IMG/VR virus record: IMGVR_UViG_3300029816_000015
Location: 1 to 23,279 of that record
Source of the DNA: a virus
Taxonomy: Duplodnaviria; Heunggongvirae; Uroviricota; Caudoviricetes
DNA: 23,279 nucleotides
Direction: 5' to 3' (one strand)
Notes under the pieces: model-generated
What the model was told of the DNA's origin: nothing
The model's input: the letters and a program-made list of their open reading frames with translations, nothing else
Database searches by the model: none
Translations under genes and position numbers: made by a program
In this document: one piece after another, positions 12,036-21,023 of the stretch
How the letters are laid out: each line of letters starts with the position of its first letter
Position numbering within the stretch: position 1 is the first letter of the stretch

Positions 12036-13637
12036 TCAACGTCTAAGCCCCTCATATGGGTTCCCTCTCACTAAGTCTGTGTGAGCGCCCATTGATGGTG
12101 GCTTGAATAATTTAACTTCGTTAAGACTGTTGAAAGCATCACTGGTAGCATCCACTTGGTCATCTTTAGTTTTACCATCACCACAAAAGCCTTCAAGTTC
12201 TTGGAAGTAAGCTTCGTTCCAACTACCTCTCAAGACTTTTACAAGTCCAGCTTCAGAAGCAGCAGAAAACCCCGCAAATCGGGTAACTTTATCTTTATTT
12301 GTTGGTTTAGCTCTTGCTCGATAACCTTTCTCGGCAAGTTTCCTGATGAGGGATGTTGCGTAGGATTTACCAGCAGCGCCTGGGTCTTGAGGGATAAAAA
12401 TACCAGTTCGCTTACCGTCACTTTCAGCAGTCAAATTAATTTGTGTTTCGACTCCAGAGGGTCTATCTCTAAATCTTACTACATCAATGATATAATAGCA
12501 ACCGTCTTTTTTAGATTTACCCATCTTAACACCTGCTGTCCAGTCTGGATTAGGGTTAATCTCAGATGGTAAAGTTGCTGCTAAGTCCCATGCTCTGACA
12601 TCGAATACATCCTCTGGGAGTGAATCAACAATTTCACACCATTGTCTTTGCCAATAGTTTGAACCTTCTGCACGAGCCTTCCAGTTACCGAAACGAAGTC
12701 TTGCAACGTTTACAGGAGTGTTGTTTTCCAACTTACCACGATATTTAGGTTCTAAGAAGTCAAGAATTGGGTTATCATCAATCGTACCAGAGATGAATGT
12801 ATATGTTTGAGGAATCTCAAGAGGAAACATTTCGAGAATCTTGTCTCTCTCCCAATCAGAAACCATAACACCATCATTCATTACATACCAACGAATACGA
12901 CCACATTTTTCAGAGTCTGGGTAACCTTCTTCATCTAAGAATGGTTCTACCCAATCGTAAATAAAGTGGTCTCTGTCTGGGTTCATAGAAATCTTCATGT
13001 ATGAATCACCTTCAGCCCCAGAACGTAAACGAGTCTGTAGGTATGAAATCTGTGAAGCAGAGAAGTGCGTACCTTCGTCAAAGTAAATAGCTGAGTATTC
13101 AATACCCTGATGACCTTCAGCGTGCTTTTCAAGTTCTAGATAGGTAAACTTGATAGTTGCCCCAGAAGGGAATGTGATAGTCATCTTCTGCTCGTGAGGA
13201 ACCCCACCAAACTTACCAAATAGTTTCTTTGCAGCAGGCCACAAACCACCTTGTAACTGTGTTGTATTTCGACGGAAATAGACAGCATTATAGTTAGGGT
13301 CATCAATAAACCTTAAAGAGTCCATTAACAATGCAGCCGTCTTACCAGCACCAGCAGCACCACCATAGAGAACCAAGTCGGCATTAGTATTTAAAAAGAC
13401 CTCTTGAGAACCCGGCTGAGGGGCTACATAGTTCTTATCAGTCATTAATTTGAAGATAAGTCTAACTTGGTCTGGTGTGTATCTTAATAAAGTCAGAATT
13501 TGAGTTGGAAGGAATTTAGAGGGGTCTTTACCGAATGATTTGATAATTTCTTTTACTTCATCAGAAAGCCCCAACTCTCCAGCTAGGACTTTCCTAACAT
13601 CTTCCACTCGCTTCTGCTTAACAGCATTTAAGTCCAT
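12036..13637 (-). CDS. Terminase large subunit
   Basis: Walker A motif (LYGGAAGAGKTAALL) in N-terminal ATPase region; about 533 aa; ATG at 13635-13637 with RBS GGAGGTG preferred over the TTG start at 13652 in the ORF track. Confidence 0.85.
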   Translation of the reverse strand: MDLNAVKQKRVEDVRKVLAGELGLSDEVKEIIKSFGKDPSKFLPTQILTLLRYTPDQVRLIFKLMTDKNYVAPQPGSQEVFLNTNADLVLYGGAAGAGKTAALLMDSLRFIDDPNYNAVYFRRNTTQLQGGLWPAAKKLFGKFGGVPHEQKMTITFPSGATIKFTYLELEKHAEGHQGIEYSAIYFDEGTHFSASQISYLQTRLRSGAEGDSYMKISMNPDRDHFIYDWVEPFLDEEGYPDSEKCGRIRWYVMNDGVMVSDWERDKILEMFPLEIPQTYTFISGTIDDNPILDFLEPKYRGKLENNTPVNVARLRFGNWKARAEGSNYWQRQWCEIVDSLPEDVFDVRAWDLAATLPSEINPNPDWTAGVKMGKSKKDGCYYIIDVVRFRDRPSGVETQINLTAESDGKRTGIFIPQDPGAAGKSYATSLIRKLAEKGYRARAKPTNKDKVTRFAGFSAASEAGLVKVLRGSWNEAYFQELEGFCGDGKTKDDQVDATSDAFNSLNEVKLFKPPSMGAHTDLVRGNPYEGLRR

Positions 13638-13658
13638 TAAGCACCTCCGCAAATAGAA

Positions 13659-14044: not shown

Positions 14045-14084
14045 ATTATTATTATTTTAATTGAGAGAGAGTAAAATAACTTGG

Positions 14085-14157
14085 AGAATCCGAAGGGACT
14101 CGAACCCTTATAGACCTGTTTTGCAGACAGGCACATAGCCATTTCTGTCACGGATTC
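14085..14157 (-). tRNA. tRNA-Cys (anticodon GCA)
   Basis: Hand-folded: acceptor CGGATTC pairing, T arm AAGGG-TTCGAGT-CCCTT, anticodon loop CTGCAAA, encoded CCA at 14082-14084, U73. Confidence 0.7.
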
Positions 14158-14164
14158 AAATTGG

Positions 14165-14254
14165 AGGAAGATACCAGACTTGAACTGGTACACCGATTTC
14201 TCAGCTACTGGCAGTTTAGCAAACTGCTCCCTTACCTTTTAGGGTTAATCTTCC
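14165..14254 (-). tRNA. tRNA-Ser (anticodon GCT), long variable arm
   Basis: 90 nt; acceptor GGAAGAT/ATCTTCC, T arm ACCAG-TTCAAGT-CTGGT, anticodon stem GCAGT/ACTGC with loop TTGCTAA, long variable arm; CCA encoded. Confidence 0.7.
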
Positions 14255-14255
14255 A

Positions 14256-14990
14256 TTATTTCTGTAATGCGTTCTTCATTTCTGGTGTTGCAATAGTATC
14301 AATTACACCAGTTTTACAAGCATCATCAAACCAGTCTGGTAAGATACCTGCTAAGAACCCATTGATATTCGTTTTAAGGTACTCTGCAATAAGGGCAGCT
14401 TCTTCTTCAATCATCTGCACAACTTCATCTGCATAAGCTGTAATCTTCGAGATACCTTCATTAATCTTACTAACAGCTTGGTTAGCTAAATCAGAAACAG
14501 TATCAAGACCTTTATCAATAGCATCTTGTAAGTCACTTAATACATCATTAACACCGTCTAGTGCACTGTTAATTGTGTCAATAGCTTTTTGACCATACTC
14601 TGTAGCAACACCCATAATACCACTAAATGGTGTACAACCAACTTGCTCTCCTGCTGCACCCATAACATTGGAGTAGCCTTTTGCTACCTGCATACGTGAG
14701 GAAAACTCATCAATAGACTTTTGACCATAATCTGTCAATGTCTTAGTGGTTGATGTAGTGCTTGTCAGACTCGTTGTAAAGCTATTAAGCAGAGCTGTTG
14801 TAAGTCCAGCAGCAATGAGCTTATCCTTCATTGTAGGGTCTGTTACAGAGCTAATAGAGCTTACAAGTGATGTAGAGGCAGCCACGGTTCCACCTAGAAC
14901 TGCTGCACCAGTAATAAGGGGATTAGAAAACCCTCTACCGGTTTTTAAGAGATTAAAAATCTCCTTACCTTGTTCTGTCATCTCTTTCAT
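14256..14990 (-). CDS. Hypothetical protein embedded in the tRNA array
   Basis: 245 aa from ATG 14988-14990 with RBS AAGGTG 5 nt upstream; the ORF-track 5' extension to 15053 overlaps tRNA-Phe and is rejected. Ala/Thr/Ser-rich, helical C-terminal half. Confidence 0.55.
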   Translation of the reverse strand: MKEMTEQGKEIFNLLKTGRGFSNPLITGAAVLGGTVAASTSLVSSISSVTDPTMKDKLIAAGLTTALLNSFTTSLTSTTSTTKTLTDYGQKSIDEFSSRMQVAKGYSNVMGAAGEQVGCTPFSGIMGVATEYGQKAIDTINSALDGVNDVLSDLQDAIDKGLDTVSDLANQAVSKINEGISKITAYADEVVQMIEEEAALIAEYLKTNINGFLAGILPDWFDDACKTGVIDTIATPEMKNALQK

Positions 14991-15008
14991 TAAGCACCTT
15001 TGAAATTG

Positions 15009-15083
15009 GTAGTCCAGTGGGATTTGAACCCTCTTCTCATGTTTTTCAGACACGCGCTTTAACCATATAAGCTACTTGGACTA
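15009..15083 (-). tRNA. tRNA-Phe (anticodon GAA)
   Basis: Acceptor TAGTCCA/TGGACTA; T loop TTCAAAT; anticodon stem-loop CGTGT-CTGAAAA-ACATG; D stem weak. Confidence 0.55.
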
Positions 15084-15091
15084 TAAATTGG

Positions 15092-15164
15092 GGTGACCTA
15101 CGGGATTTGAACCCGTATAGACCATGTTCACAGCATGGGTCATTACCTTTTATGATAAGGCCAC
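15092..15164 (-). tRNA. tRNA-His (anticodon GTG)
   Basis: Acceptor GTGGCCT/AGGTCAC, D stem TCAT/ATGA, anticodon stem CCATG/CATGG with loop CTGTGAA, T arm ACGGG-TTCAAAT-CCCGT, CCA encoded. Confidence 0.7.
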
Positions 15165-15198
15165 ATTTAAGGACTCTCGTAAGAACCCTTAGAAGTGG

Positions 15199-15271
15199 CA
15201 GCGGCATAAGGATTTGAACCTTAATAAGACAGCTTCAGAGACTGTTGCATTGCCAGTTATGCTATACCGCT
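15199..15271 (-). tRNA. tRNA-Gln (anticodon CTG)
   Basis: Acceptor AGCGGTA/TGCCGCT, D stem GCAT/ATGC, anticodon loop CTCTGAA, T arm TAAGG-TTCAAAT-CCTTA, CCA encoded. Confidence 0.65.
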
Positions 15272-15279
15272 AAATTTGG

Positions 15280-15355
15280 TACTCCATATCGGATTCGAAC
15301 CGATACATAACACAGATTTTAAGTCTGGCCTCTCTGCCAATTGGAGTAATGGAGC
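15280..15355 (-). tRNA. tRNA with Leu anticodon TAA but short variable arm (76 nt)
   Basis: Acceptor GCTCCAT/ATGGAGT, U8, D stem CTC/GAG, anticodon stem CAGA/TCTG with loop CTTAAAA, 7-8 nt variable loop, T arm ATCGG-TTCGAAT-CCGAT, A73, CCA encoded. Confidence 0.5.
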
Positions 15356-15360
15356 ATTGG

Positions 15361-15433
15361 CGGGGGATGTTGGAATTGAACCAACTTCTTCGATTTCAAA
15401 GACCGAGGTTTTAACCTTGTAAACTAATCCCCT
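15361..15433 (-). tRNA. tRNA-Gln (anticodon TTG)
   Basis: Acceptor with A1-C72 mismatch, T arm GTTGG-TTCAATT-CCAAC, anticodon stem TCGGT/ATCGA with loop CTTTGAA, CCA encoded. Confidence 0.6.
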
Positions 15434-15441
15434 TTAAATCT

Positions 15442-15999
15442 TTACTTTCTTAGTGGATGAATAAAGAATGCCAACATAACTCTTTCCCTTGAGAATGCTC
15501 TTTCTTCTGGGACAACACTTTTAAGTTTCCACCCAACATAAATTCTCCAGTAGAATTGCTTACCAAAGACTTTAATTGACGGGATAAAAGCGAATAATCC
15601 CCAAGCATTACTGTTCCACATTAGGAGATAACCTGTCTGATTATCTTCAGGGTTAGAACTTACATTGATATTACCTTTCCACTTAGTAACATCTTTTACA
15701 TCTCTTCCTAACACATGGTAAGAGAAGTTATAAGCTTTGTTTCTCCAGAGCCAACCAACTCTCTGCATATAGACACCAAGCTTACCAATCTTTCTAATCT
15801 TAGCCCATCGTTCGACATGACCTTTATCACCATCAATTGGGTTGTCATATGTCTCCATCCATCTGAATCCAAAAGGGAGATGTCCTTTCTTCTCACTGTA
15901 GAATGGAACTACGAAAGGTGCTAAGATAACTGCTAAGATTGCTGCAAATGGCTCTAACAAAGCTAAGAAAATCCATGAAGCATACTTCAAATATCTCAT
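15442..15999 (-). CDS. Hypothetical membrane protein embedded in tRNA array
   Basis: 185 aa ORF with RBS AAGAGG upstream of ATG; N-terminal hydrophobic helix (WIFLALLEPFAAILAVILAPFVVPF), Trp/Lys-rich remainder; flanked tightly by tRNA genes. Confidence 0.55.
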   Translation of the reverse strand: MRYLKYASWIFLALLEPFAAILAVILAPFVVPFYSEKKGHLPFGFRWMETYDNPIDGDKGHVERWAKIRKIGKLGVYMQRVGWLWRNKAYNFSYHVLGRDVKDVTKWKGNINVSSNPEDNQTGYLLMWNSNAWGLFAFIPSIKVFGKQFYWRIYVGWKLKSVVPEERAFSRERVMLAFFIHPLRK

Positions 16000-16021
16000 C
16001 TAAATAGCCTCTTTAAATTGG

Positions 16022-16094
16022 CGCAGGATAAGGGATTCGAACCCCTATTAACAGCTTCGTAGACTGTTGCTCTATCCATTTGAACTAATCCTGC
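16022..16094 (-). tRNA. tRNA-Arg (anticodon ACG)
   Basis: Acceptor GCAGGAT/ATCCTGC, T arm AGGGG-TTCGAAT-CCCTT, anticodon stem ACAGT/GCTGT with loop CTACGAA, CCA encoded. Confidence 0.65.
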
Positions 16095-16102
16095 AAAACT
16101 GG

Positions 16103-16177
16103 TGTTCCAAGACGGATTCGAACCGTCACTAATACAAGGTTTGAGCTTGCATCCTCTGCCAATTGGGATACTGGAAC
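16103..16177 (-). tRNA. tRNA with Leu anticodon CAA but short variable arm (75 nt)
   Basis: Acceptor GTTCCAG/TTGGAAC, U8, D stem TCC/GGA, anticodon stem GCAAG/CTTGT with loop CTCAAAC, 6-nt variable loop, T arm GACGG-TTCGAAT-CCGTC, A73, CCA encoded; length fixed by adjacent tRNA-Val. Confidence 0.55.
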
Positions 16178-16181
16178 ATGG

Positions 16182-16254
16182 TACTCACTAAAGGACTTGA
16201 ACCTTTTTTCTTCATCTTGTAAGGGTGATGTTTTACCATATAAACTAAGCGAGT
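16182..16254 (-). tRNA. tRNA-Val (anticodon TAC)
   Basis: Acceptor ACTCGCT/AGTGAGT, T arm AAAGG-TTCAAGT-CCTTT, anticodon loop CTTACAA, CCA encoded. Confidence 0.65.
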
Positions 16255-16353
16255 ATGAAAGAGGTCTGAAGTTGTGCCGCTAACTCAACTCCGTGGAATT
16301 TGTTATGGTCTTCAGTTGACTCAAAGCGGTCTTTCACTTGACCTCTAAATTGG

Positions 16354-16425
16354 TGCTCCCACAAGGATTCGAACCCTGATAAGTTGCTTACAAGGCAACC
16401 GTAATAGCCAATTATACGATAGGAG
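16354..16425 (-). tRNA. tRNA-Thr (anticodon TGT)
   Basis: Acceptor GCTCCTA/TGGGAGC, T arm CAGGG-TTCGAAT-CCTTG, perfect anticodon stem GTTGC/GCAAC with loop CTTGTAA, CCA encoded. Confidence 0.65.
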
Positions 16426-16436
16426 CATTAATTTGG

Positions 16437-16508
16437 AGCATCCAGAGGGAATCGAACCCTCAACCTCAGTTTGGAAGACTGTAATTTTCCCGTTTAAACT
16501 ATGGATGC
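16437..16508 (-). tRNA. tRNA-Gly (anticodon TCC)
   Basis: Acceptor GCATCCA/TGGATGC perfect, T arm GAGGG-TTCGATT-CCCTC, anticodon loop CTTCCAA, CCA encoded. Confidence 0.7.
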
Positions 16509-16517
16509 ACTAATTGG

Positions 16518-16590
16518 TGGAGTCACTGAGAATTGAACTCAGTTCCCAAGTTTGCAAAACTCGAATTTTAACCATATAAACTATGACCCC
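16518..16590 (-). tRNA. tRNA-Ala (anticodon TGC)
   Basis: Acceptor GGGGTCA/TGACTCC with G3-U70, T arm CTGAG-TTCAATT-CTCAG, anticodon loop TTTGCAA, CCA encoded. Confidence 0.7.
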
Positions 16591-16599
16591 ATTGCTTGG

Positions 16600-16672
16600 T
16601 ACAGGTGGAGGGAATTGAACCCATCGTCTTACTGATTAAGAGTCAGCCGCATAACCATTTTGCTACACCTGC
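16600..16672 (-). tRNA. tRNA-Lys (anticodon CTT)
   Basis: Acceptor GCAGGTG/CACCTGT, D stem GCA/TGC, anticodon stem CTGA/TCAG with loop CTCTTAA, T loop TTCAATT with only 3 clean T-stem pairs, CCA encoded. Confidence 0.55.
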
Positions 16673-16682
16673 ATTAATTTGG

Positions 16683-16757
16683 TAGGAGACAAGGGATTCG
16701 AACCCTCAAACACCAACTTCTAAGGATGGTAGGTTTACCAATTACCGTCAATCTCCC
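16683..16757 (-). tRNA. tRNA with Leu anticodon TAG but short variable arm (75 nt)
   Basis: Acceptor GGGAGAT/GTCTCCT (two G-U pairs), anticodon stem CCATC/GTTGG with loop CTTAGAA, T arm GAGGG-TTCGAAT-CCCTT, A73, CCA encoded; two extra nt between acceptor and D stem. Confidence 0.45.
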
Positions 16758-17011
16758 ATTAAATCTTTTTAGAGAACTTCTAAGAACCTAAGCAACAAGG
16801 TTCCACAACAAGCTGTAATAACCTTAGAAGCCCTCTAAAAAGACCTAATTTGGTCTTTGCATAGTCTTGTTTAATCCGGTGACTAGAACCTTTGGAGAGC
16901 TTGATATATCTCTTCTCCGTGACACCTACTAGGTGCTTTATCAGTGTACGACAATACACGAGGGATAAACCGAAAATGCGAGCAAGCATGGACGGTGTAA
17001 ATCTTATTAGG

Positions 17012-17099
17012 CGGTAAGTAAAGGAGTCGAACCCTCACCGTATCTCTACAGTGGCAACAGTTTTCAAGACTGTTTGGCTGCCATTAGCCGCTACCTACC
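17012..17099 (-). tRNA. tRNA-Ser (anticodon TGA), long variable arm
   Basis: 88 nt; acceptor GGTAGGT/ACTTACC, 3-bp D stem, perfect anticodon stem ACAGT/ACTGT with loop CTTGAAA, long variable arm, T loop TTCGACT. Confidence 0.6.
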
Positions 17100-17115
17100 C
17101 CTAATAAGATTTTGG

Positions 17116-17195
17116 CATGGGACGGAGGAGTTGAACCCCTTTGAAACGGTTTTGGAGGCCGTTGCTCATGCCTTAGAGTCTTAACATCGTCCCAT
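17116..17195 (-). tRNA. tRNA-Trp (anticodon CCA), enlarged D region
   Basis: 80 nt; acceptor ATGGGAC/GTCCCAT perfect, anticodon stem ACGG/CCGT with loop CTCCAAA, T loop TTCAACT, CCA encoded; D region about 7 nt longer than standard. Confidence 0.5.
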
Positions 17196-17340
17196 ACTGT
17201 AATTCGAAGCTTACCGTATTTTCACAACACTGTAAAGCCCCTTCTCAGATTATTTACATGTTCTGGAAAACATGAGATACAGACCACCTCCTTACACGGA
17301 GACCCGATAAGGTCGTCTAAGCAATCTGCTAACTATTTGG

Positions 17341-17414
17341 CACACCCTACAGGATTCGAACCTGTAACTCAATGATTAGAAGTCATTTGCTCTGTCCAGT
17401 TGAACTAAGGGTGC
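17341..17414 (-). tRNA. tRNA-Arg (anticodon TCT)
   Basis: Acceptor GCACCCT/AGGGTGT, T arm ACAGG-TTCGAAT-CCTGT, perfect anticodon stem AATGA/TCATT with loop CTTCTAA, CCA encoded. Confidence 0.7.
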
Positions 17415-17617
17415 ATTAATCTTTAAAAACTCTCTTAGAAAGCCCTTAAAGATGCCCACCTTATTAATCATACCGTGGGCTAGTACGCCAAATTCTTTGA
17501 TGAGGGATTGGAAGACCTCACTGGTGTTTAGCCTATCAAGCTACTGCCAGAAAAACATTGTCGTTTGCATTTATTTTAAATTTGCAAAATAGACGCTACG
17601 CAACGAAAACTAAGGTT

Positions 17618-17646
17618 ACTATAAAGTGGTCACATCTAAATGTCAA
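17618..17646 (-). promoter_or_regulatory. Sigma70-like promoter inside the tRNA array (minus sense TTGACA-N17-TATAGT)
   Basis: -35 TTGACA at 17646..17641 and -10 TATAGT at 17623..17618 with a 17-bp spacer; predicted start near 17610, about 195 nt upstream of tRNA-Arg(TCT). Confidence 0.5.
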
Positions 17647-17664
17647 CAACTTTATTGAAATTGG

Positions 17665-17737
17665 TACTGGTAGGTGGAATCGAACCACCGATGTTCCCTT
17701 ATCAGGGGAGTGTTATAACCTTCTTAACTATACCAGC
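17665..17737 (-). tRNA. tRNA-Ile (anticodon GAT)
   Basis: Acceptor GCTGGTA/TACCAGT, T arm GGTGG-TTCGATT-CCACC, anticodon loop CTGATAA, CCA encoded. Confidence 0.7.
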
Positions 17738-17741
17738 TTGG

Positions 17742-17815
17742 AGGTTCAGATGGGATTCGAACCCACATTCATAGGGCTTATGAGACCCTTGCATTACCTT
17801 ATCTGCGACTGAACC
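17742..17815 (-). tRNA. tRNA with anticodon CAT (Met elongator or Ile2-type)
   Basis: Acceptor GGTTCAG/CTGAACC perfect, D stem GCA/TGC, anticodon stem AGGGT/GCCCT with loop CTCATAA, T arm GTGGG-TTCGAAT-CCCAT, CCA encoded. Confidence 0.65.
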
Positions 17816-17822
17816 ATATTGG

Positions 17823-17895
17823 TAGAAGTGGAGGGATTCGAACCCATCGCCTGTCAGATTAAAAGTCTGCCGCATCACCATTCTGCTACACTTCC
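17823..17895 (-). tRNA. tRNA-Lys (anticodon TTT)
   Basis: Acceptor GGAAGTG/CACTTCT, anticodon stem CAGA/TCTG with loop CTTTTAA, T loop TTCGAAT with GGG/CCC core as in the other Lys tRNA, CCA encoded. Confidence 0.55.
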
Positions 17896-17901
17896 ATTAA
17901 A

Positions 17902-18040
17902 TTATCTTTGTAGATAAGCTACCCAGACTTGCTTAAGGTCTGTAGCGATGTGCCTTGTTGGGTTTAAATCTAGAATTTACCCTTTCACCCTTTGTGGTCG
18001 CATACTCACAGGTAAGCTTAATAACTTATCTACAAAGATA
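17902..18040 (-). repeat. Long hairpin: 17-bp perfect inverted repeat (TTATCTTTGTAGATAAG / CTTATCTACAAAGATAA) enclosing about 105 nt
   Basis: Arms at 17902-17918 and 18024-18040 are exact reverse complements; interior holds smaller hairpins including CCAGAC-N8-GGTCTG (17922-17943); no tRNA fold found. Confidence 0.5.
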
Positions 18041-18044
18041 ATTA

Positions 18045-18176
18045 CCAGACCGTTGTTTATCATCTTAAGTGCTACCATTACACCAACTCGACATCTGCCG
18101 AGTGAAGGAATCGAACCTTCGCCTTTTCTTTACCGGAGAAATAGATTGTTTAAGTTTTGCTGTAAACGGTCTTCTG
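18045..18176 (-). ncRNA. Candidate Y-RNA-like ncRNA (YrlA-type) with permuted tRNA-like module
   Basis: Closing helix from minus-sense CAGAAGACCGUU (5') and AACGGUCUGG (3'); interior in minus sense has T arm GAAGG-UUCGAUU-CCUUC, then hairpin ACUCGGC-AGAU-GUCGAGU, then D-arm-like UGGUGUAAUGGUAGCAC. No anticodon arm. Confidence 0.4.
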
Positions 18177-18188
18177 TAAATTTGTTGA

Positions 18189-18265
18189 GCCAGACCAAGT
18201 TTTAAATTTTCAAAATTAAATTGGCTTTAAATTTTAAGTAACTTGCTGAATTTGGTCTTCTGCTC
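18189..18265 (-). ncRNA. Bulged-helix hairpin element, same closing helix as 18045..18176, AT-rich interior
   Basis: Arms GCCAGACCAAG (18189-18199) and TTGGTCTTCTGC (18252-18263) pair as AGACC/GGUCU plus a 3-nt bulge plus GG/CC; loop about 50 nt without tRNA-like arms. Confidence 0.3.
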
Positions 18266-18277
18266 CTTTAAAGAATA

Positions 18278-18314
18278 CTCGTAAGAACCCTTTAAGGGAG
18301 GGGCTAAATAGCCC
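18278..18314 (-). promoter_or_regulatory. Conserved spacer motif (minus sense CTTAAAGGGTTCTTACGAG) next to small hairpin GGGCTA-AA-TAGCCC
   Basis: Near-identical to the motif at 15174-15195 (minus sense CTTCTAAGGGTTCTTACGAGAG); weaker copies at 16770-16790 and 17428-17450. Function unknown. Confidence 0.3.
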
Positions 18315-18326
18315 TCTCAAAATTGG

Positions 18327-18400
18327 CGGTTACGATGAGACTTGAACTCACATCATCTCCCGTGACAGGGGAGTATTTTATCCAGTTAAACTACATAACC
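18327..18400 (-). tRNA. tRNA-Asp (anticodon GTC)
   Basis: Acceptor GGTTATG/CGTAACC, T arm GTGAG-TTCAAGT-CTCAT, perfect anticodon stem CTCCC/GGGAG with loop CTGTCAC, CCA encoded. Confidence 0.65.
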
Positions 18401-18409
18401 TTTATTTGG

Positions 18410-18494
18410 TGTGCCGTGTAGGAGTCGAACCTACCGAGTCTCAATGACAAGGGATTTACAGTCCCCACCGCTACCATCTACGGGATAACGACAC
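18410..18494 (-). tRNA. tRNA-Tyr (anticodon GTA), long variable arm
   Basis: 85 nt; acceptor GTGTCGT/ACGGCAC, D stem CCG/CGG, anticodon stem GGGGA/TCCCT with loop CTGTAAA, long variable arm, T arm GTAGG-TTCGACT-CCTAC, CCA encoded. Confidence 0.65.
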
Positions 18495-18506
18495 ATTTAA
18501 ATTTGG

Positions 18507-18580
18507 CGGTTAGTCAGGGATTCGAACCCTGTGCCATTCGCTTAACAGGCGACCGCACATACCTTATGTGCTTCCTAACC
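18507..18580 (-). tRNA. tRNA-Asn (anticodon GTT)
   Basis: D stem GCAC/GTGC perfect, anticodon stem GTCGC/GCGAA with loop CTGTTAA, T arm CAGGG-TTCGAAT-CCCTG, CCA encoded. Confidence 0.65.
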
Positions 18581-18590
18581 TTAATATATT

Positions 18591-18655
18591 GCCAGACCGT
18601 GTTTTTTTTTCTTTTATCCGCAAAAAGTAGTTTATTGCTGCATACGGTCTTCTGC
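18591..18655 (-). ncRNA. Bulged-helix hairpin element (third copy)
   Basis: Arms GCCAGACCGT (18591-18600) and ACGGTCTTCTGC (18644-18655); 7-bp helix plus 3-nt bulge plus G-C pairs; 43-nt loop with a poly-T run on plus. Confidence 0.3.
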
Positions 18656-18663
18656 AAAATTGG

Positions 18664-18737
18664 AGGCGGGTGCAGGAGTCGAACCTGCCGATGCCATGCT
18701 AATGAGACATGTGAGACGCCCTTTCTCTATACCCGCA
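18664..18737 (-). tRNA. tRNA with anticodon CAT (second copy; Met, fMet or Ile2-type)
   Basis: Acceptor TGCGGGT/ACCCGCC with 1:72 mismatch, T arm GCAGG-TTCGACT-CCTGC, anticodon stem CATGT/GCATG with loop CTCATTA (U at position 37), CCA encoded. Confidence 0.5.
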
Positions 18738-18748
18738 ATTCTTAATGA

Positions 18749-18821
18749 CCAGACCAAATCTCTTCTTTGTCCGATTTAGCTTCAGATGAATAAGATTAAG
18801 TTTGCTGTAATTGGTCTTCTG
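18749..18821 (-). ncRNA. Bulged-helix hairpin element (fourth copy)
   Basis: Arms CCAGACCAAA (18749-18758) and TTGGTCTTCTG (18811-18821) enclosing an AT-rich 50-nt loop. Confidence 0.3.
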
Positions 18822-18831
18822 TCAAAACTGG

Positions 18832-18906
18832 CGTTCCAGAAGGGATTTTAACCCTCAAATATCCACTTTGAAAGAGTGGTGACTATACCATTTTGTCTAC
18901 TGGAAC
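18832..18906 (-). tRNA. tRNA-Glu (anticodon TTC)
   Basis: Acceptor GTTCCAG/CTGGAAC perfect, D stem GAC/GTC, perfect anticodon stem CCACT/AGTGG with loop CTTTCAA, unusual T loop TTAAAAT, CCA encoded. Confidence 0.6.
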
Positions 18907-18916
18907 ATTAATTTGG

Positions 18917-18990
18917 TCTCTGTTGGAGGACTTGAACCTCCGGCCTTACCGCCCCAAACGGAACACTCTACCAAGCTGAGCTAAACAGAG
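18917..18990 (-). tRNA. tRNA-Pro (anticodon TGG); first gene of the array in transcription order
   Basis: Acceptor CTCTGTT/AACAGAG perfect, T arm GGAGG-TTCAAGT-CCTCC, anticodon loop TTTGGGG, CCA encoded. Confidence 0.65.
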
Positions 18991-19016: not shown

Positions 19017-19046
19017 ACTTTAACATTATTTTTTAGTGATTGTCAA
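19017..19046 (-). promoter_or_regulatory. Sigma70-like promoter for the tRNA array (minus sense TTGACA-N18-TAAAGT)
   Basis: -35 TTGACA at 19046..19041, -10 TAAAGT at 19022..19017; predicted start about 10-20 nt upstream of tRNA-Pro. Confidence 0.45.
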
Positions 19047-19108
19047 GAACTTTTTTAAAATATTTTTCAGTATCTTAGAAAAGCTCTCATTTCGTTTCTA
19101 TGTAGAAC

Positions 19109-19137
19109 ATATTAAAGGGTATCAAACACATTGTCAA
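19109..19137 (-). promoter_or_regulatory. Second sigma70-like promoter (minus sense TTGACA-N17-TAATAT) overlapping a hairpin
   Basis: -35 TTGACA at 19137..19132, -10 TAATAT at 19114..19109, 17-bp spacer; the -35 lies in the loop of hairpin GGGTAT...ATACCC (19117-19142). Confidence 0.45.
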
Positions 19138-19155: not shown

Positions 19156-19521
19156 TTACCAGATATAACGGTCAACCATTACTGCTTTGAGCATTACGCT
19201 GATTGGGTCAAACTTCTCACCACCAAGCAGAGCTTTTAAAGTGGCTGGAGAGAACCCTGATACCATCGCTACACCATTATCCTTAACAGATACTTCGCAA
19301 GTACCATTACGGTTTGCTAAGTACCAGAATACTAGTTGTGGCATTTCGTATCCAGCTTTTTTGTACTTACTCTGAATTGCTTCAAAGTTTGTACGACCAT
19401 TTGCACCATCAACCTGATTAAACTCCATATCAGAGAAGATAATAAGCTTACTTGGCATATCTTTCTGAGTCAAGTTGTTTCTCTTACCTATCTCAAGAAT
19501 ACGGTCAAAGCTGCTTGTAAG
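19156..19521 (-). CDS. C-terminal part of Ro60/Rsr-like (or DUF2828-like) vWA-domain protein, out of frame with N-terminal part
   Basis: Frame open from just after a TAA at 19522-19524; encodes LTSSFDRILEIGKRNNLTQKDMPSKLIIFSDMEFN... (second half of a vWA fold). ORF track entry 19156..19473 begins at an internal TTG. Confidence 0.55.
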   Translation of the reverse strand, partial: LTSSFDRILEIGKRNNLTQKDMPSKLIIFSDMEFNQVDGANGRTNFEAIQSKYKKAGYEMPQLVFWYLANRNGTCEVSVKDNGVAMVSGFSPATLKALLGGEKFDPISVMLKAVMVDRYIW

Positions 19522-20570
19522 TTAGTTGAACCATATTCAACATGACGCATTACCTGACGATGACGGTTTCGTAAATCACCACTCAGTTCAATGAAATGAG
19601 GGTTTGTTGAATAGACCATTAACTCATCTTTAAAGCAACCTGTATTGCGTTCTGCTACATACAAGGCAAGTGATACACCAATATCAAGGGCAGTGATTGA
19701 ACCAAGATTCACCCAAGACATTGAGCTTGAAACATCAGTCATACACAAGATGTTCTCACCTTCTGCCATCCAGTTTGGTAGTGCTTTCCACTGCTCATTA
19801 GCAACATCTGCATTACCATGCTTGATAGACTTAATCACATCGTATGGGTAGACAGCACCAGCATTAATCTTAGCCTCACCTTTTGATAAGGACTCAATGT
19901 AAGCTTTGTAGCGTTCTCCATCTTTGCGGTTAAAGAGCTTTTGGTAACGTGCAGCAGCAAGAGACGGAATCTTACTGTAATCAATCTTACCAAACTCATT
20001 AGCAGAGATTTTTTGCTCAACCGTATCAGACAGTGCAGATAACAGTGTGCGGTATTCTTTCTCGCTTAAGTTTGCAAACTTACAGAAACGTTTTACAAAC
20101 TGTTTGTGTCGTGGTTTTACTCGTGGTAACCACTTGGCTGCTAAACCTGCTGTCTCAGGGTCTAGTAATGCTGCTTCTAAATGCTTAAAGGCATCTGTCT
20201 CAAAACGAGTACCTACGAAGATTTTGAAGTCATCAAAACGACCAAGTTCTGCAATCTTATCCATAATACGAAGAAACTGTGTAGGCTCTAAAACTTTATC
20301 TTCGATTGCTTGAAGTAAAACAGTTCTGAAGGCTTTACGCTCACCCATACCTTCTCGTACATCTCGCATGTGAAGCAAAATACGAACTGCAACATCAACA
20401 TCCTCACGCAAAGCTTTGTAGAACAAGTCTGGTAAGATTTCTACATTGCTACGGCTTGAACCAGCAGCTTTGTAAAAGTCCACAAGAGCAGACATTGATG
20501 AAGTATGGTTTACAGCACCATTTTCAGTTCGACCTGCATGAAGGTGCGCATGTTTAAATAATTCGCTCAT
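19488..20570 (-). CDS. N-terminal part of Ro60/Rsr-like (or DUF2828-like) protein: helical domain plus start of vWA domain
   Basis: 360 aa; RBS AAGAGAG upstream of ATG; helical N-terminal about 280 aa, then DxSxS motif (CMTDVSSSMSW) typical of a vWA MIDAS; ends at TAG 19488-19490 inside the vWA domain. Confidence 0.6.
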   Translation of the reverse strand: MSELFKHAHLHAGRTENGAVNHTSSMSALVDFYKAAGSSRSNVEILPDLFYKALREDVDVAVRILLHMRDVREGMGERKAFRTVLLQAIEDKVLEPTQFLRIMDKIAELGRFDDFKIFVGTRFETDAFKHLEAALLDPETAGLAAKWLPRVKPRHKQFVKRFCKFANLSEKEYRTLLSALSDTVEQKISANEFGKIDYSKIPSLAAARYQKLFNRKDGERYKAYIESLSKGEAKINAGAVYPYDVIKSIKHGNADVANEQWKALPNWMAEGENILCMTDVSSSMSWVNLGSITALDIGVSLALYVAERNTGCFKDELMVYSTNPHFIELSGDLRNRHRQVMRHVEYGSTNLQAALTVFLR

Positions 20571-20651
20571 ATTTTACTCTCTTCTCTCATTTGTTGTTTG
20601 ATGTGACAGACTTTAGAGCAACTTTGTAGAGTCTGTCAACACCTTTTAAAA

Positions 20652-21023
20652 TTATTTTTTGAGAGTCGCTACAGCAGAGAACGTTGGTTTGTTATCTGTC
20701 TGTGGTTGACCACCATTATCAGGAGTCTTCTTAGTGTCTGCTGCAAGTGCTTTCATCTCACCTGCTGAGTGAGTAAAGATAGTTTTACCGACCTCAATCA
20801 TACTCTTGATGGTTACATCGTCTGTGTTTAACCCGAACTCTGCAAGCTTAGCAGCATCCCTTGTAACAATCGCCTCAAACAGCTTTGCAGCAAACTCAGC
20901 AGAATTATCAATGGTCAGTTGAGCTTTTACGAGTGAGCTTTTGTTACGAGAGCCTTTTGGTCTTCCAGATGGGTTTCCAGATTGGCCTTTTTTAAACTGG
21001 CCTTTGTTTGTTCTGTTTTTCAT
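20652..21023 (-). CDS. Small basic protein with N-terminal GNPSGRPKG motif (putative nucleic-acid-binding)
   Basis: 123 aa ORF, RBS AAGAGG 8 nt upstream; N-terminus KGQFKKGQSGNPSGRPKGSRNK; first gene of the minus-strand operon containing the Ro-like gene. Confidence 0.55.
   Translation of the reverse strand: MKNRTNKGQFKKGQSGNPSGRPKGSRNKSSLVKAQLTIDNSAEFAAKLFEAIVTRDAAKLAEFGLNTDDVTIKSMIEVGKTIFTHSAGEMKALAADTKKTPDNGGQPQTDNKPTFSAVATLKK

What the first reader, a model, noticed from the sequence alone, without database searches (positions are those of the whole stretch)
14085..18990. Large minus-strand array of 27 tRNA genes covering most amino acids
27 tRNA genes were hand-folded in about 4.9 kb, nearly all with encoded CCA: Cys, Ser x2, Phe, His, Gln x2, Arg x2, Val, Thr, Gly, Ala, Lys x2, Trp, Ile, CAT x2, Asp, Tyr, Asn, Glu, Pro and three Leu-anticodon species. 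An array of this size implies strong codon-usage or translational-takeover adaptation. Several genes have non-canonical features (1:72 mismatches, weak T stems in both Lys tRNAs, a TTAAAAT T loop in tRNA-Glu).
Basis: seen in the sequence. Interest (0 to 1): 0.4.

Follow-up and report, generated by a model that had tools for sequence, protein, structure and literature searches.

The report
Known phage tRNA array, hidden RNAs
The window comes from a Felix O1-type phage whose large tRNA gene cluster is real but already well known; the new points are unannotated RNAs between the tRNA genes, above all a widespread piece that looks like the protein-tagging part of tmRNA but lacks its tRNA-like part.

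Summary
The 27th, Trp(CCA) at 17113-17195, is missed by the tools, but it is conserved and is homologous to a canonical phage tRNA-Trp. The window is 96-97% identical to Felixounavirus phages, where the array is annotated and has been discussed since 2010, so the finding itself is already known. Codon use fits supply of phage-preferred codons: AGA is about 10x the E. coli frequency, and ACA, UCA, CUA, CCA and GUA are 2-3x. Defence evasion was not tested.

- **Tag RNA (17447-17613).** It has its own strong promoter and encodes a tmRNA-type tag, ANDNVFLAVA**. Homologues occur in 625 phage records from several families and in 157 E. coli genomes, and none is annotated. All 48 distinct copies keep the 10-codon frame. 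A stop-codon hairpin and two pseudoknots covary. No tRNA-like domain was found.
- **Ro60-like gene (19156-20570).** It lies upstream of the array and is frameshifted here.
- **Four stem-bulge RNAs.** They are paralogues, and one carries a permuted tRNA mimic in YrlA order.

The functions of these extra RNAs are inferred, not shown.

The parts
14082..14157 (-). tRNA-Cys(GCA)
   Evidence: ARAGORN; Rfam 54.6 bits
14162..14254 (-). tRNA-Ser(GCT), with a long variable arm
   Evidence: ARAGORN; Rfam 46.2 bits
14256..14990 (-). ORF inside the array (244 aa), DUF7217 / phrog_2114, function unknown
   Evidence: annotated as a putative membrane protein in phage fjerdesal
15007..15082 (-). tRNA-Phe(GAA)
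15089..15164 (-). tRNA-His(GTG); C73 but T at position -1, so no encoded G-1
15196..15271 (-). tRNA-Gln(CTG)
15277..15355 (-). tRNA-Leu(TAA), 79 nt, no long variable arm
15358..15433 (-). tRNA-Gln(TTG), A1.C72 mismatch
15442..15999 (-). ORF inside the array (185 aa), DUF7338 / phrog_2143, function unknown
16019..16094 (-). tRNA-Arg(ACG)
16100..16177 (-). tRNA-Leu(CAA), 78 nt, no long variable arm
16179..16254 (-). tRNA-Val(TAC)
16351..16426 (-). tRNA-Thr(TGT)
16434..16508 (-). tRNA-Gly(TCC)
16515..16590 (-). tRNA-Ala(TGC), with G3.U70
16597..16672 (-). tRNA-Lys(CTT), weak T stem
16680..16757 (-). tRNA-Leu(TAG), 78 nt, no long variable arm
17010..17099 (-). tRNA-Ser(TGA); the only gene without a complete encoded CCA
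17113..17195 (-). Non-canonical tRNA-Trp(CCA). It has A1-U72, G73, CCA, a T arm and an anticodon arm. An extra linker (GAUGUUAAGA) lies before the D stem.
   Evidence: Not called by ARAGORN; 23 bits to Rfam tRNA-Sec; fold; homology to phiEa21-4 tRNA-Trp; conservation; P778 counterpart with a compensated D stem
17194..17337 (-). Conserved structured spacer: a hairpin closed by CAGAUUGCUU / AAGGAGGUGGUCUG, then a CAUGUU/AACAUG hairpin
   Evidence: fold; the AAGGAGGTGGTCTGTATCTC block is shared with phiEa21-4
17338..17414 (-). tRNA-Arg(TCT); reads AGA, the codon most over-used relative to E. coli
17447..17613 (-). tmRNA-like 'tag RNA' without a tRNA-like domain. From 5' to 3':
- D-loop analogue UAGUUUUCG, 17612-17604
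- resume codon GCA at 17568; tag ANDNVFLAVA, 17568-17539; stops UGA UAG, 17538-17533
- stop-codon hairpin, 17550-17521
- pseudoknot A, 17520-17488
- pseudoknot B, 17487-17454
17618..17646 (-). Sigma-70-type promoter TTGACA-N17-TATAGT (11 of 12). It places the transcript start just 5' of the tag RNA.
   Evidence: equivalent promoters in phiEa21-4, MK54 and CMS-2020a, read by eye
17662..17737 (-). tRNA-Ile(GAT)
17739..17815 (-). tRNA(CAT) 1; GGG/CCC in the anticodon stem but a paired G1-C72
17820..17895 (-). tRNA-Lys(TTT), weak T stem
17899..18043 (-). Very stable long hairpin RNA with a closing stem of about 24 bp; function unknown
   Evidence: -48.3 kcal/mol, z = -5.95, 0 of 200 shuffles fold as well
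18042..18179 (-). Stem-bulge RNA unit 4. The closing stem encloses a permuted tRNA mimic: anticodon-like hairpin, T arm GAAGG-UUCGAUU-CCUUC, closed acceptor hairpin, D arm.
18187..18265 (-). Stem-bulge RNA unit 3
18324..18400 (-). tRNA-Asp(GTC)
18407..18494 (-). tRNA-Tyr(GTA), long variable arm; called a pseudogene in some records
18504..18580 (-). tRNA-Asn(GTT)
18589..18657 (-). Stem-bulge RNA unit 2
18661..18737 (-). tRNA(CAT) 2; U1.C72 mismatch and U37; below the Rfam threshold
18746..18824 (-). Stem-bulge RNA unit 1
18829..18906 (-). tRNA-Glu(TTC), T loop UUAAAAU
18914..18990 (-). tRNA-Pro(TGG), first gene of the array
19017..19137 (-). Two sigma-70-type promoters (10 of 12 each) upstream of the array
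19156..20570 (-). Ro60/TROVE-like gene (DUF2828 + DUF7788, phrog_850). A 1-nt deletion in a T run near 19509 splits it into two ORFs here.

Best explanation
This is the tRNA gene array of a Felixounavirus (Felix O1-like myovirus of E. coli and Salmonella). It holds 26 canonical tRNA genes and one conserved, non-canonical tRNA-Trp, covering all 20 amino acids.

**How it most likely works.**
- The genes are read as polycistronic transcripts from sigma-70-type promoters upstream (19137-19017) and inside the array (17646-17618). This is inferred from the sequence.
- Host RNase P and 3' exonucleases would cut out the tRNAs. Because 25 of the 26 canonical genes and the Trp-like gene encode CCA, no CCA addition is needed. 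This step rests on general knowledge of tRNA processing.
- Most anticodons begin with U and read A/U-ending codons. They match the codons that this 39-40% G+C phage over-uses relative to its roughly 51% G+C host. The array therefore most likely sustains translation of phage genes, especially late structural genes, as host tRNA supply becomes limiting or is destroyed. This function is inferred.

**What else is in the locus.** The array also carries other structured RNAs:
- A promoter-driven RNA that is homologous to the mRNA-like half of two-piece tmRNA but has no tRNA-like domain.
- Four paralogous stem-bulge RNAs. Together with the adjacent Ro60-like gene, they look like a phage Ro60/Y-RNA module.

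The functions of these extra RNAs are inferred, not shown.
For: **Identity.** The array region is 96-97% identical over its full length to Felixounavirus genomes. The same tRNA order is annotated there.

**tRNA calls.**

**Codon match.** It agrees with PMC3185647 and PMC12482277.

**Promoters.**

**Tag RNA.**
- Homologues occur in 625 phage records from several families.
- All 48 distinct copies keep a 10-codon frame followed by a stop. Variation is concentrated at third positions: codon 10 is GCU, GCG or GCC, and codon 7 is CUG or UUG.
- 93.8% of structure cells are paired, against 29-44% when the partners are slid. Eighteen of 26 pairs show changes on both sides.
- The resume motif AUAAAU-GCA-AAY-GA is shared with bona fide permuted tmRNAs in viral contigs.

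**Ro60-like gene.** The AlphaFold model has pLDDT 88. The top 11 PDB matches are all Ro60/Rsr/TROVE proteins, with E 5e-8 to 3e-6 and TM-score up to 0.67.

**Stem-bulge RNAs.**
- The exact motif AGAAGACC occurs four times in the window, all in array spacers.
- The four units share a common fold.
- The stems covary among the four paralogues and three units of Yersinia phage P778: 94.8% paired against 19-43% slid.
Against: - No expression, processing or charging data exist for this phage. Several tRNAs depart from the canonical form: no encoded G-1 in tRNA-His, short Leu tRNAs, weak T stems, and U37 in one CAT tRNA. These might be poorly active.
- Codon matching cannot separate codon compensation from replacement of a degraded host pool or from defence evasion.
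- For the tag RNA, no tRNA-like domain was found. The only known route for translating such a frame is therefore unexplained.
- The Ro60-like gene is frameshifted in this window.
- No Rfam family supports the stem-bulge RNAs, and no binding to the Ro60-like protein has been shown.
Confidence: 0.85

Rival explanations
1. The array is mainly a counter-defence. It supplies tRNAs that resist, or replace, host tRNAs cleaved or depleted by anticodon nucleases and other tRNA-targeting immune systems such as PrrC, VapC, retron effectors, PARIS and Schlafen-like nucleases.
For: - There is precedent in T5 and mycobacteriophages (PMC10264068 and PMC11555353).
- The set covers almost every amino acid, including species such as Lys, Tyr, Asn and Gln that are known nuclease targets (own knowledge).
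- Many of the tRNAs have odd acceptor, T-arm or anticodon-loop features.
- The adjacent Ro60-like gene belongs to a family tied to RNA quality control and repair.
Against: - This was not tested here.
- The study of the relative Sf14 concluded that nuclease escape is unlikely for that phage.
- The anticodon set tracks phage codon preference well, which codon supply alone explains.
- The two explanations are not mutually exclusive.
Confidence: 0.3
2. The tag RNA is a decaying relic of a permuted phage tmRNA that lost its tRNA-like domain. It persists only through recent horizontal spread and has no function.
For: - ARAGORN finds no tmRNA in any enterobacterial-phage copy.
- Rfam RF04321 gives only 29-31 bits against a gathering score of 47. 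The 113-nt part of that model that should hold the tRNA-like domain is deleted.
- The promoter -10 box sits where the 5' acceptor strand lies in intact permuted tmRNAs.
Against: - The element is kept in at least five phage families at 70-80% identity.
- Every one of 48 distinct copies keeps the frame, the stop and a C-terminal Ala, with synonymous variation.
- Six helices keep pairing through compensatory changes.
- Independent sigma-70 promoters abut the same 5' end in four lineages.
- A relic would have lost the frame and the pairing.
Confidence: 0.15
3. The tag RNA is not a translation template. It acts as a decoy or sponge that mimics the mRNA-like and pseudoknot part of host tmRNA. It could titrate a tmRNA-binding factor such as S1, RNase R or SmpB, or a nuclease that targets tmRNA.
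For: - The pseudoknot architecture is like tmRNA, but no acceptor is present.
- A mycobacteriophage that carries only the tRNA-like domain was proposed to inhibit tmRNA by titrating SmpB (PMC4131195).
Against: A decoy does not need an intact 10-codon frame with synonymous third-position variation and a fixed stop codon.
Confidence: 0.2
4. Many of the 27 genes are pseudo-tRNAs, so the array is largely non-functional.
For: - tRNAscan-SE labelled two Felix O1 tRNAs as pseudogenes.
- One GenBank record marks Tyr as a pseudogene.
- Tyr, the second CAT tRNA and the Trp-like gene fall below the Rfam gathering score.
Against: - 24 genes pass the Rfam gathering score.
- The low scorers are conserved across genera, and the Trp-like gene shows compensatory changes.
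- 25 of the 26 canonical genes, and the Trp-like gene too, keep an encoded CCA.
Confidence: 0.05

Closest known systems
tRNA clusters of Felix O1 and other Felixounavirus/Ounavirinae phages (Whichard et al. 2010, PMC3185647; Felixounavirus comparison, PMC8300805; Sf14, PMC12482277)
   Same: The gene order is the same (Pro-Glu-Met-Asn-Tyr-Asp ... Cys). DNA identity is 96-97% to E. coli phages Shy, E9 and fjerdesal. The codon-usage rationale is the same, and the same small ORFs are interspersed.
   Different: Nothing essential differs. This copy has 26 ARAGORN-callable genes, where published counts range from 17 to 26 depending on the tool. The Trp-like gene, the tag RNA and the stem-bulge RNAs are not annotated in the records examined.
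tRNA arrays of T4, T5 and mycobacteriophages used for codon supply or defence evasion (PMC10264068, PMC11555353)
   Same: These are large arrays in lytic phages with lower G+C than their hosts. Small stable RNAs are interspersed in T4 and T5 (own knowledge).
   Different: This is a different phage lineage. No homing endonuclease lies inside this copy, although some relatives carry HNH or endonuclease VII insertions. No experimental link to any defence system exists.
Two-piece (circularly permuted) tmRNA: Rfam RF04321, RF01850, RF01849
   Same: - The resume context AUAAAU-GCA-AAY-GA is shared.
- The tag is 10 codons, AND....(A/V)A, followed by a stop.
- The stop codon sits in a hairpin, and pseudoknots follow.
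- A D-loop-like UAGUUU(U)CG lies at the 5' side.

   Different: - The acceptor stem, T arm, CCA end and G3.U70 are all missing.
- A promoter replaces the 5' acceptor strand.
- The score is 29 bits, against 117-129 bits for true members.
- The downstream pseudoknots differ in sequence from those of the permuted tmRNAs examined.
Phage tmRNA genes of mycobacteriophages (Bxz1 group), Bacillus phage G, and the DS6A gene that has only the tRNA-like domain (PMC4131195)
   Same: These are phage-borne genes or gene fragments derived from tmRNA, located near tRNA genes.
   Different: The mycobacteriophage (Bxz1 group) and phage G genes are complete tmRNAs, and DS6A keeps only the tRNA-like domain. The element here is the opposite half alone. 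It was not found in the 2014 survey, which searched RefSeq viral genomes downloaded in November 2012.
Ro60 (Rsr) with Y RNAs, including bacterial and phage YrlA tRNA mimics (PMC4201824; Thermus phage phiLo Ro60, PMC12135203)
   Same: - The predicted protein has the TROVE ring plus vWA fold.
- The neighbouring small RNAs have joined 5' and 3' ends and a conserved bulged helix.
- One of them carries the V, T, acceptor-like and D stem-loops in YrlA order.
   Different: - The protein belongs to Pfam DUF2828, not to the TROVE family, and has no sequence-level PDB hit.
- The RNAs have a CAGCAA loop motif rather than the CGAA motif described for Y RNAs.
- The RNAs lie between tRNA genes.
- Binding has not been tested, and the gene is frameshifted in this window.

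Membership tests
tRNA (Rfam RF00005), 26 genes | Cloverleaf that scores at or above the Rfam gathering score, or is called by ARAGORN | tested here: met
   26 of 26 by ARAGORN; 24 of 26 by Rfam at the gathering score
tRNA (Rfam RF00005), 26 genes | An acceptor end ready for charging (encoded or addable CCA) | tested here: met
   25 of 26 encode CCA; Ser(TGA) has CC
tRNA (Rfam RF00005), 26 genes | The genes are expressed, processed and aminoacylated | not testable with these tools
   This needs tRNA sequencing or acid gels from infected cells.
tRNA-Trp (candidate at 17113-17195) | Canonical cloverleaf detectable by the standard tools | tested here: not met
   ARAGORN makes no call. The RF00005 model gives no hit at E<=1 over this stretch; the only hit there is 23 bits to the tRNA-Sec model. 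The D region has about 8-10 nt before the D stem.
tRNA-Trp (candidate at 17113-17195) | CCA anticodon plus the A1-U72/G73 identity set of E. coli tRNA-Trp (own knowledge), and homology to a canonical tRNA-Trp | tested here: met
   Alignment with phiEa21-4 tRNA-Trp; conserved while the flanks vary; compensated D stem in P778
Felixounavirus tRNA array | Synteny and high DNA identity with annotated arrays of the genus | tested here: met
   237 phage records cover at least 80% of the array, and the best are 96-97% identical; same gene order
tmRNA (one-piece or two-piece), tested on the tag RNA | tRNA-like domain: acceptor stem with G3.U70, T arm, 3' CCA | tested here: not met
   ARAGORN finds no tmRNA in the window or in nine enterobacterial-phage loci. 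The only UCCACCA end on the minus strand belongs to tRNA-Ala. The Rfam alignment deletes the 113-nt block that holds this domain.
tmRNA (one-piece or two-piece), tested on the tag RNA | Resume codon with no start codon, a short tag frame ending in hydrophobic/Ala residues, and an in-frame stop | tested here: met
   The tag is ANDNVFLAVA**. All 48 distinct copies keep the frame, with codon periodicity. No in-frame ATG, GTG or TTG lies between the upstream in-frame TAG and the GCA codon (read).
tmRNA (one-piece or two-piece), tested on the tag RNA | Stop-codon hairpin and pseudoknots downstream of the tag | tested here: met
   Six helices, including two pseudoknots; 93.8% of cells paired; 18 pairs with changes on both sides
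tmRNA (one-piece or two-piece), tested on the tag RNA | Score at or above the curated Rfam thresholds | tested here: not met
   29 bits on RF04321 (gathering score 47) and 13.9 bits on RF00023. True permuted tmRNAs score 117-129 bits.
tmRNA (one-piece or two-piece), tested on the tag RNA | Alanylation, SmpB binding and tagging activity | not testable with these tools
   This needs biochemistry or proteomics.
Ro60/Rsr (TROVE + vWA) protein | Ring of helical repeats plus a vWA domain | tested here: met
   AlphaFold model with pLDDT 88 and pTM 0.88. The top 11 Foldseek PDB hits are all Ro60/Rsr/TROVE over the full length.
Ro60/Rsr (TROVE + vWA) protein | Sequence membership of Pfam TROVE | tested here: not met
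   Pfam gives only DUF2828 and DUF7788; no sequence-level PDB hit
Y RNA / YrlA | Encoded next to Ro60, with 5' and 3' ends paired in a helix that carries a conserved bulge | tested here: met
   Four units lie within 2.4 kb downstream of the gene. They share a common fold, and the stems covary across seven units in two genera.
Y RNA / YrlA | tRNA-like module in the order V, T, acceptor-like stem, D | tested here: inconclusive
   Unit 4 shows this order in the RNAfold structure, and the Rfam tRNA model partly aligns to it at 22 bits. Units 1-3 lack the module. No Y-RNA family reached E<=10.
Y RNA / YrlA | Bound by the Ro60 protein | not testable with these tools
   This needs EMSA or CLIP.
Anti-defence tRNA set | The tRNAs rescue infection in hosts that carry a tRNA-targeting system | not tested
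   Literature precedent only

The most novel reading that the evidence does not exclude
The 167-nt RNA at 17447-17613, together with its more than 600 unannotated homologues, would be a new class of phage RNA. The homologues occur in Felix O1-like, Vi1-like, N4-like, lambdoid, Klebsiella siphovirus and SSU5-like phages and in E. coli prophages. The RNA would be a tmRNA derivative that keeps a selected, translatable degradation-tag frame and pseudoknots, has lost its own tRNA-like domain, and has its own promoter. If the frame is used, phages would re-programme or hijack ribosome rescue with an altered tag (...LAVA or ...LMAA instead of ...ALAA). They would do so through a partner supplied in trans, which would be a mechanism not known for tmRNA. 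In Felix O1-like phages it sits in an RNA island with a Ro60-like protein and four Y-RNA-like stem-bulge RNAs.
Probability: 0.5. Interest if true: 0.8.

Novelty: already known. Interest (0 to 1): 0.45.

Why it matters
The tRNA array itself adds nothing new. It is a textbook feature of Felix O1-like phages and should be scored as ordinary.

What matters is that routine annotation treats the spacers as empty, and they are not.
- **Tag RNA.** A tag-encoding relative of tmRNA, with strong covariation and a coding signature, is present in hundreds of therapeutic and model phages (Felix O1, CBA120/Vi1-like, G7C-like, HK97-like prophages). It is annotated nowhere. If it is functional, it opens a testable link between phage infection and ribosome rescue or ClpXP-directed proteolysis.
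- **Ro60-like gene and stem-bulge RNAs.** These would extend Ro60/Y-RNA systems to common enterobacterial phages. They would also tie those systems physically to tRNA arrays, which is relevant to tRNA quality control or repair during conflicts over tRNA cleavage.

Tried and rejected
1. **Search for a tRNA-like domain belonging to the tag RNA.**
   - ARAGORN in tmRNA mode on the window and on all 214 loci held at that point found none in any enterobacterial-phage copy.
   - A scan for YYCACCA acceptor ends found only tRNA-Ala.
   - Using tRNA-Ile as a permuted acceptor piece, as the weak Rfam alignment suggests, was rejected. No complementary 5' strand follows it.
2. **Reading the tag as an ordinary small ORF.** There is no in-frame start codon. 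The overlapping AUG frame (MQTTMFFWQ) is conserved in neither sequence nor length.
3. **Scan of bacterial species genomes for the resume motif.** It gave 83 hits in unrelated taxa, about the chance expectation by my estimate, so no bacterial source was identified.
4. **Sequence searches of the Ro60-like protein against PDB,** with a single sequence and with a profile. Both found nothing. Only the fold search worked.
5. **Rfam on the stem-bulge units.** Only a partial tRNA hit appeared. A match to Dictyostelium Class I RNA through the UUACAGCAA motif scored 12.8-13.9 bits (E 2.6-8.7), which I treat as chance level.
6. **CAGAAGACC as a -35 promoter element.** Rejected, because no consistent -10 box follows and the sigma-70 scan does not pick these sites.
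7. **Overall promoter and terminator counts in the array.** They are not above the shuffled expectation. Only the 11-of-12 site, whose position is conserved, is used as evidence.
8. **The AGACC...GGUCU motif in Yersinia phage P778 and Vibrio phage phi-pp2.** It is absent. P778 instead has the same architecture with covarying stems. Nothing comparable was seen in phi-pp2.
9. **A covariance model of the tag RNA.** Not built, because BLAST and pattern searches had already supplied the homologues.

Full report
**1. Observation**

ARAGORN finds 26 tRNA genes in the window, all on the minus strand between 14082 and 18990. Rfam's tRNA model passes its gathering score for 24 of them. Tyr and the second CAT tRNA fall below it.

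- Position 1:72 is mismatched in Gln(TTG) and in the second CAT tRNA.
- Both Lys tRNAs have weak T stems.
- tRNA-Glu has a UUAAAAU T loop.
- The three Leu-anticodon genes are only 78-79 nt, with no long variable arm.

The 27th gene, Trp(CCA), lies at 17113-17195. Neither tool calls it; the best score is 23 bits to the tRNA-Sec model. It still folds into an acceptor stem, anticodon arm and T arm. It aligns, flanks included, with the canonical tRNA-Trp of Erwinia phage phiEa21-4. It is invariant in six Felixounavirus sequences whose flanks vary, and position 1 switches between A-U and G.U. In Yersinia phage P778 it recurs with the same GAUGUUAAGA linker, while the D stem changes from CUC/GAG to ACACA/UGUGU.

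I therefore count 26 canonical genes plus one conserved, non-canonical Trp gene.

**2. What it is**

The array region is 96-97% identical over its whole length to E. coli phages Shy, E9, fjerdesal and many others. In all, 237 phage records cover at least 80% of it. These are Felixounavirus (Ounavirinae), and the same tRNA order is annotated in GenBank.

The Felix O1 genome paper of 2010 described 22 tRNAs in clusters and discussed codon compensation (PMC3185647). A genus comparison reports 17-23 tRNAs (PMC8300805). A 2025 study analysed the 26 tRNAs of the relative Sf14 (PMC12482277). The finding is therefore already known.

Two ORFs of unknown function lie inside the array: DUF7217 at 14256-14990 and DUF7338 at 15442-15999. 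The large terminase subunit lies downstream at 12036-13652.

**3. How it most likely works**

Sigma-70-type promoters lie upstream of the array (19137-19109 and 19046-19017). A near-consensus one lies inside it, at 17646-17618.

In 5,334 codons of the window's long ORFs, the codons cognate to the phage tRNAs are the ones over-used relative to E. coli: AGA 10.6x, ACA 3.3x, AAG 2.9x, UCA 2.8x, CUA 2.5x, CCA 2.2x, GUA 2.0x, GCA 1.75x and UUA 1.7x. The E. coli frequencies are from my memory of the Kazusa table.

This supports supply of phage-preferred codons, as the published work concluded. Replacement of a collapsing host tRNA pool fits the same data. Evasion of tRNA-targeting defences (PMC10264068 and PMC11555353) is a compatible alternative that I could not test.

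**4. A tmRNA-like tag RNA in the spacer between tRNA-Ile and tRNA-Arg**

A distant BLAST of this spacer unexpectedly hit unannotated DNA in unrelated phages. With the element alone as query, 625 phage records match. They include:
- Ounavirinae, including Erwinia phage phiEa21-4
- Ackermannviridae: May and CBA120
- Schitoviridae: St11Ph5 and UTK0001
- Klebsiella siphoviruses
- the lambdoid phage HK633, where the element lies between the PR'/qut site and the holin gene
- SSU5-like phage-plasmids
- an Aeromonas phage

In addition, 157 of 5,426 complete E. coli genomes carry the HK633-type element, and PGAP annotates nothing there.

*The tag frame.* The conserved core contains AUAAAU followed by GCA AAC GAC AAU GUU UUU CUG GCA GUA GCU UGA UAG, which reads ANDNVFLAVA**. 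By comparison, E. coli ssrA encodes ANDENYALAA (own knowledge). Other lineages encode ANEEMYLAVA, ANDNTFLAVA, ANDDVVLMAA, ANDAQFLAVA and ANDSEMRVAA.

In 48 distinct sequences the 10-codon frame and the stop at codon 11 are always intact. Variation is concentrated at third positions: codon 10 is GCU, GCG or GCC, codon 7 is CUG or UUG, and codon 3 is GAC, GAU or GAA. No in-frame start codon lies upstream, and the overlapping AUG frame is not conserved.

*The structure.* Downstream of the resume codon lie a hairpin that holds the stop codon and two H-type pseudoknots. On alignment A2, 93.8% of cells pair, against 29-44% when the 3' partners are slid. Eighteen of 26 pairs show changes on both sides.

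*The promoter.* In the window, in phiEa21-4, in MK54 and in CMS-2020a, a sigma-70 promoter places the transcript start just 5' of a conserved UAGUUUUCG.

*Relation to known tmRNAs.* A scan of IMG/VR with the resume motif returned many contigs in which ARAGORN calls complete permuted (two-piece) tmRNAs. These score 117-129 bits on Rfam RF04321. In them, UAGUUUCGAC is the D-loop analogue that follows the 5' acceptor strand.

The enterobacterial-phage elements lack the acceptor strands, T arm and CCA end:
- ARAGORN finds no tmRNA in any of them.
- Rfam gives 29-31 bits against a gathering score of 47, with the 113-nt part of the model that should hold the tRNA-like domain deleted.
- The only UCCACCA end on the minus strand of the window belongs to tRNA-Ala.

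*Conclusion.* The element is homologous to the coding half of two-piece tmRNA but fails the defining test for tmRNA membership. Its frame is nevertheless under purifying selection. That selection argues against a mere relic and sits awkwardly with a pure decoy. How the frame would be translated without a tRNA-like domain is unexplained.

The 2014 tmRNA survey listed phage ssrA only in mycobacteriophages and Bacillus phage G (PMC4131195). My literature searches found no description of this element.

**5. A Ro60-like gene and stem-bulge RNAs**

*The gene.* The gene just upstream of the array (19156-20570) matches phrog_850 ("RNA-binding protein") and Pfam DUF2828 plus DUF7788. An AlphaFold model of the 97%-identical full-length homologue has pLDDT 88. 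Its top 11 PDB matches are all Ro60/Rsr/TROVE structures, aligned over the full length.

In this window the gene is split by a 1-nt deletion in a T run near 19509.

*The RNAs.* Four array spacers contain a repeated unit. The exact motif AGAAGACC occurs four times in the window, only there. All four units fold the same way:
- an outer helix of 4 bp
- a 5' AGA bulge opposite a single G
- an inner helix of 7 bp, AGACCNN/NNGGUCU
- a loop that starts with NNNNCAGCAA

Among Felixounaviruses the termini are invariant while the interiors drift. Unit 4 is missing in fjerdesal.

Yersinia phage P778 has a Ro60-like gene directly followed by a 24-tRNA array. It has three units of the same architecture with different, compensating stems: UGC-ACA-GGAYUN ... 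UWYAGCAA ... NARUCC-A-GCA. On a termini-only alignment of the seven units, 94.8% of cells pair, against 19-43% when slid. Eight of 11 pairs change on both sides.

Unit 4 (18042-18179) encloses an anticodon-like hairpin, a T arm, a closed acceptor-like hairpin and a D arm. This is the V-T-AS-D order described for YrlA tRNA mimics encoded next to Ro60 (PMC4201824). I read these units as candidate Y-RNA-like partners of the phage Ro60-like protein. Binding has not been tested, and no Rfam family supports the assignment.

**6. Comparison and verdict**

The array is a member of the known Felixounavirus tRNA clusters, and all defining features I could test were met. On its own it is ordinary and already known.

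The tag RNA works like, and descends from, the mRNA-like part of two-piece tmRNA, but it is not a tmRNA by definition. The Ro60-like protein has the Ro60 fold but is not a sequence member of TROVE.

These embedded elements are not annotated in the records examined, and I found no description of them in the literature I could search. They are the reason the interest score is above that of a routine tRNA array.

Noticed in passing
window 17447-17613 (-), promoter 17646-17618: An unannotated tmRNA-like tag RNA. It encodes ANDNVFLAVA**, has a stop-codon hairpin and two covarying pseudoknots, has its own promoter, and has no tRNA-like domain. Homologues occur in 625 phage records and in 157 of 5,426 E. 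coli genomes.
   Followed up: yes
window 19156-20570 (-): The gene next to the array has a predicted Ro60/TROVE + vWA fold (Pfam DUF2828). Here a 1-nt deletion in a T run near 19509 splits it into ORFs of 360 and 105 aa. This is either a sequencing error or a real frameshift.
   Followed up: yes
window 18746-18824, 18589-18657, 18187-18265, 18042-18179 (-): Four paralogous stem-bulge RNAs between tRNA genes. Each has an outer helix, an AGA/G bulge, an AGACC/GGUCU helix and a CAGCAA loop motif. Unit 4 contains a circularly permuted tRNA mimic in YrlA order. Covarying counterparts occur in Yersinia phage P778 (L216 7137-7216, 7336-7412, about 7780-7890).
   Followed up: yes
L216 5001-11100; L215 1-6437: The Ro60-like gene is directly followed by a 24-tRNA array in Yersinia phage vB_YenM_P778. 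In the KVP40-like Vibrio phage phi-pp2 it lies about 3.4 kb from a tRNA cluster. The linkage between Ro60-like genes and tRNA arrays therefore recurs.
   Followed up: partly
window 15277-15355, 16100-16177, 16680-16757 (-): All three Leu-anticodon tRNAs lack the long variable arm that bacterial tRNA-Leu has, but they keep a Leu-type D arm and A73. Short Leu tRNAs also occur in phiEa21-4, P778 and phi-pp2.
   Followed up: partly
window 15089-15164 (-): tRNA-His has C73 but T at position -1. The G-1 that E. coli HisRS normally needs (own knowledge) is therefore not encoded.
   Followed up: no
window ORFs 141-13652, 14256-15999, 19488-21023 (-): No ATA (Ile) codon occurs in 5,334 codons, even though the genome is 39-40% G+C. 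AGA, rare in E. coli, is the main Arg codon. This fits neither CAT tRNA acting as a lysidine tRNA-Ile2.
   Followed up: partly
window 17899-18043 (-): An exceptionally stable long hairpin with a closing stem of about 24 bp (-48.3 kcal/mol, z = -5.95), between unit 4 and tRNA-Lys(TTT). Its function is unknown.
   Followed up: no
window 17194-17337 (-): A structured spacer with an SD-like AAGGAGGUGGUCUGUAUCUC block. The block is conserved in Erwinia phage phiEa21-4 and is followed by a hairpin that covaries (CAUGUU/AACAUG against CCUGAC/GUCAGG).
   Followed up: partly
window 15169-15190 and 18271-18292 (-), with a weaker copy near 17421-17443: A repeated spacer hairpin motif, AAGGGTTCTTACGAGAGTCCTT, lies next to tRNA genes (2 matches against 0 expected). 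It also follows the tag RNA in phiEa21-4.
   Followed up: partly
window 16255-16350 (-): The spacer between tRNA-Thr and tRNA-Val folds into a stable hairpin closed by AGAGGUC/GACCUCU (z = -3.05) and contains a GAAGACC variant.
   Followed up: no
L003 2620-2830, L007 1320-1560 and many IMG/VR loci: In temperate phages and siphoviruses the tag RNA continues into long forms. These have repeated hairpin modules (CACAACAGGUAAGAGCA ... UGCUCUUUCCGUUGUGG) whose variable tips sometimes contain T-arm-like GGUUCGAAUCC. They also have a GCGCA/UGCGC hairpin and a terminal covarying hairpin followed by CACCACA, which can pair with GUUGUGGUG.
   Followed up: partly
L005 2803-2866 and 2868-2990; L004 about 2795-2920; L006 about 1000-1190: Odd tRNA-like genes that ARAGORN does not call lie near the tag RNA in other phages. 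They have an acceptor stem, a T arm and CCA, and either lack an anticodon arm or carry 50-150-nt insertions.
   Followed up: no
L121, L127, L144, L195: In some Felixounaviruses the tRNA-Arg(UCU) downstream of the tag RNA is replaced by a different UCU-anticodon tRNA with a long variable arm. In some of these (L121, L144) an ORF follows instead of the usual spacer. The array is therefore a recombination hot spot.
   Followed up: no
window 18160-18170, 18805-18815 (-): The UUACAGCAA loop motif next to the 5' stem strand resembles the conserved CCUUACAGCAA motif of Dictyostelium Class I RNAs. The Rfam scores are only at chance level (12.8-13.9 bits).
   Followed up: partly
window 16780-16989 (-): A 69-aa ORF lies in the 253-nt gap between tRNA-Leu(TAG) and tRNA-Ser(TGA). 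It has no family match and is not annotated in relatives, so the gap may instead be non-coding RNA.
   Followed up: no
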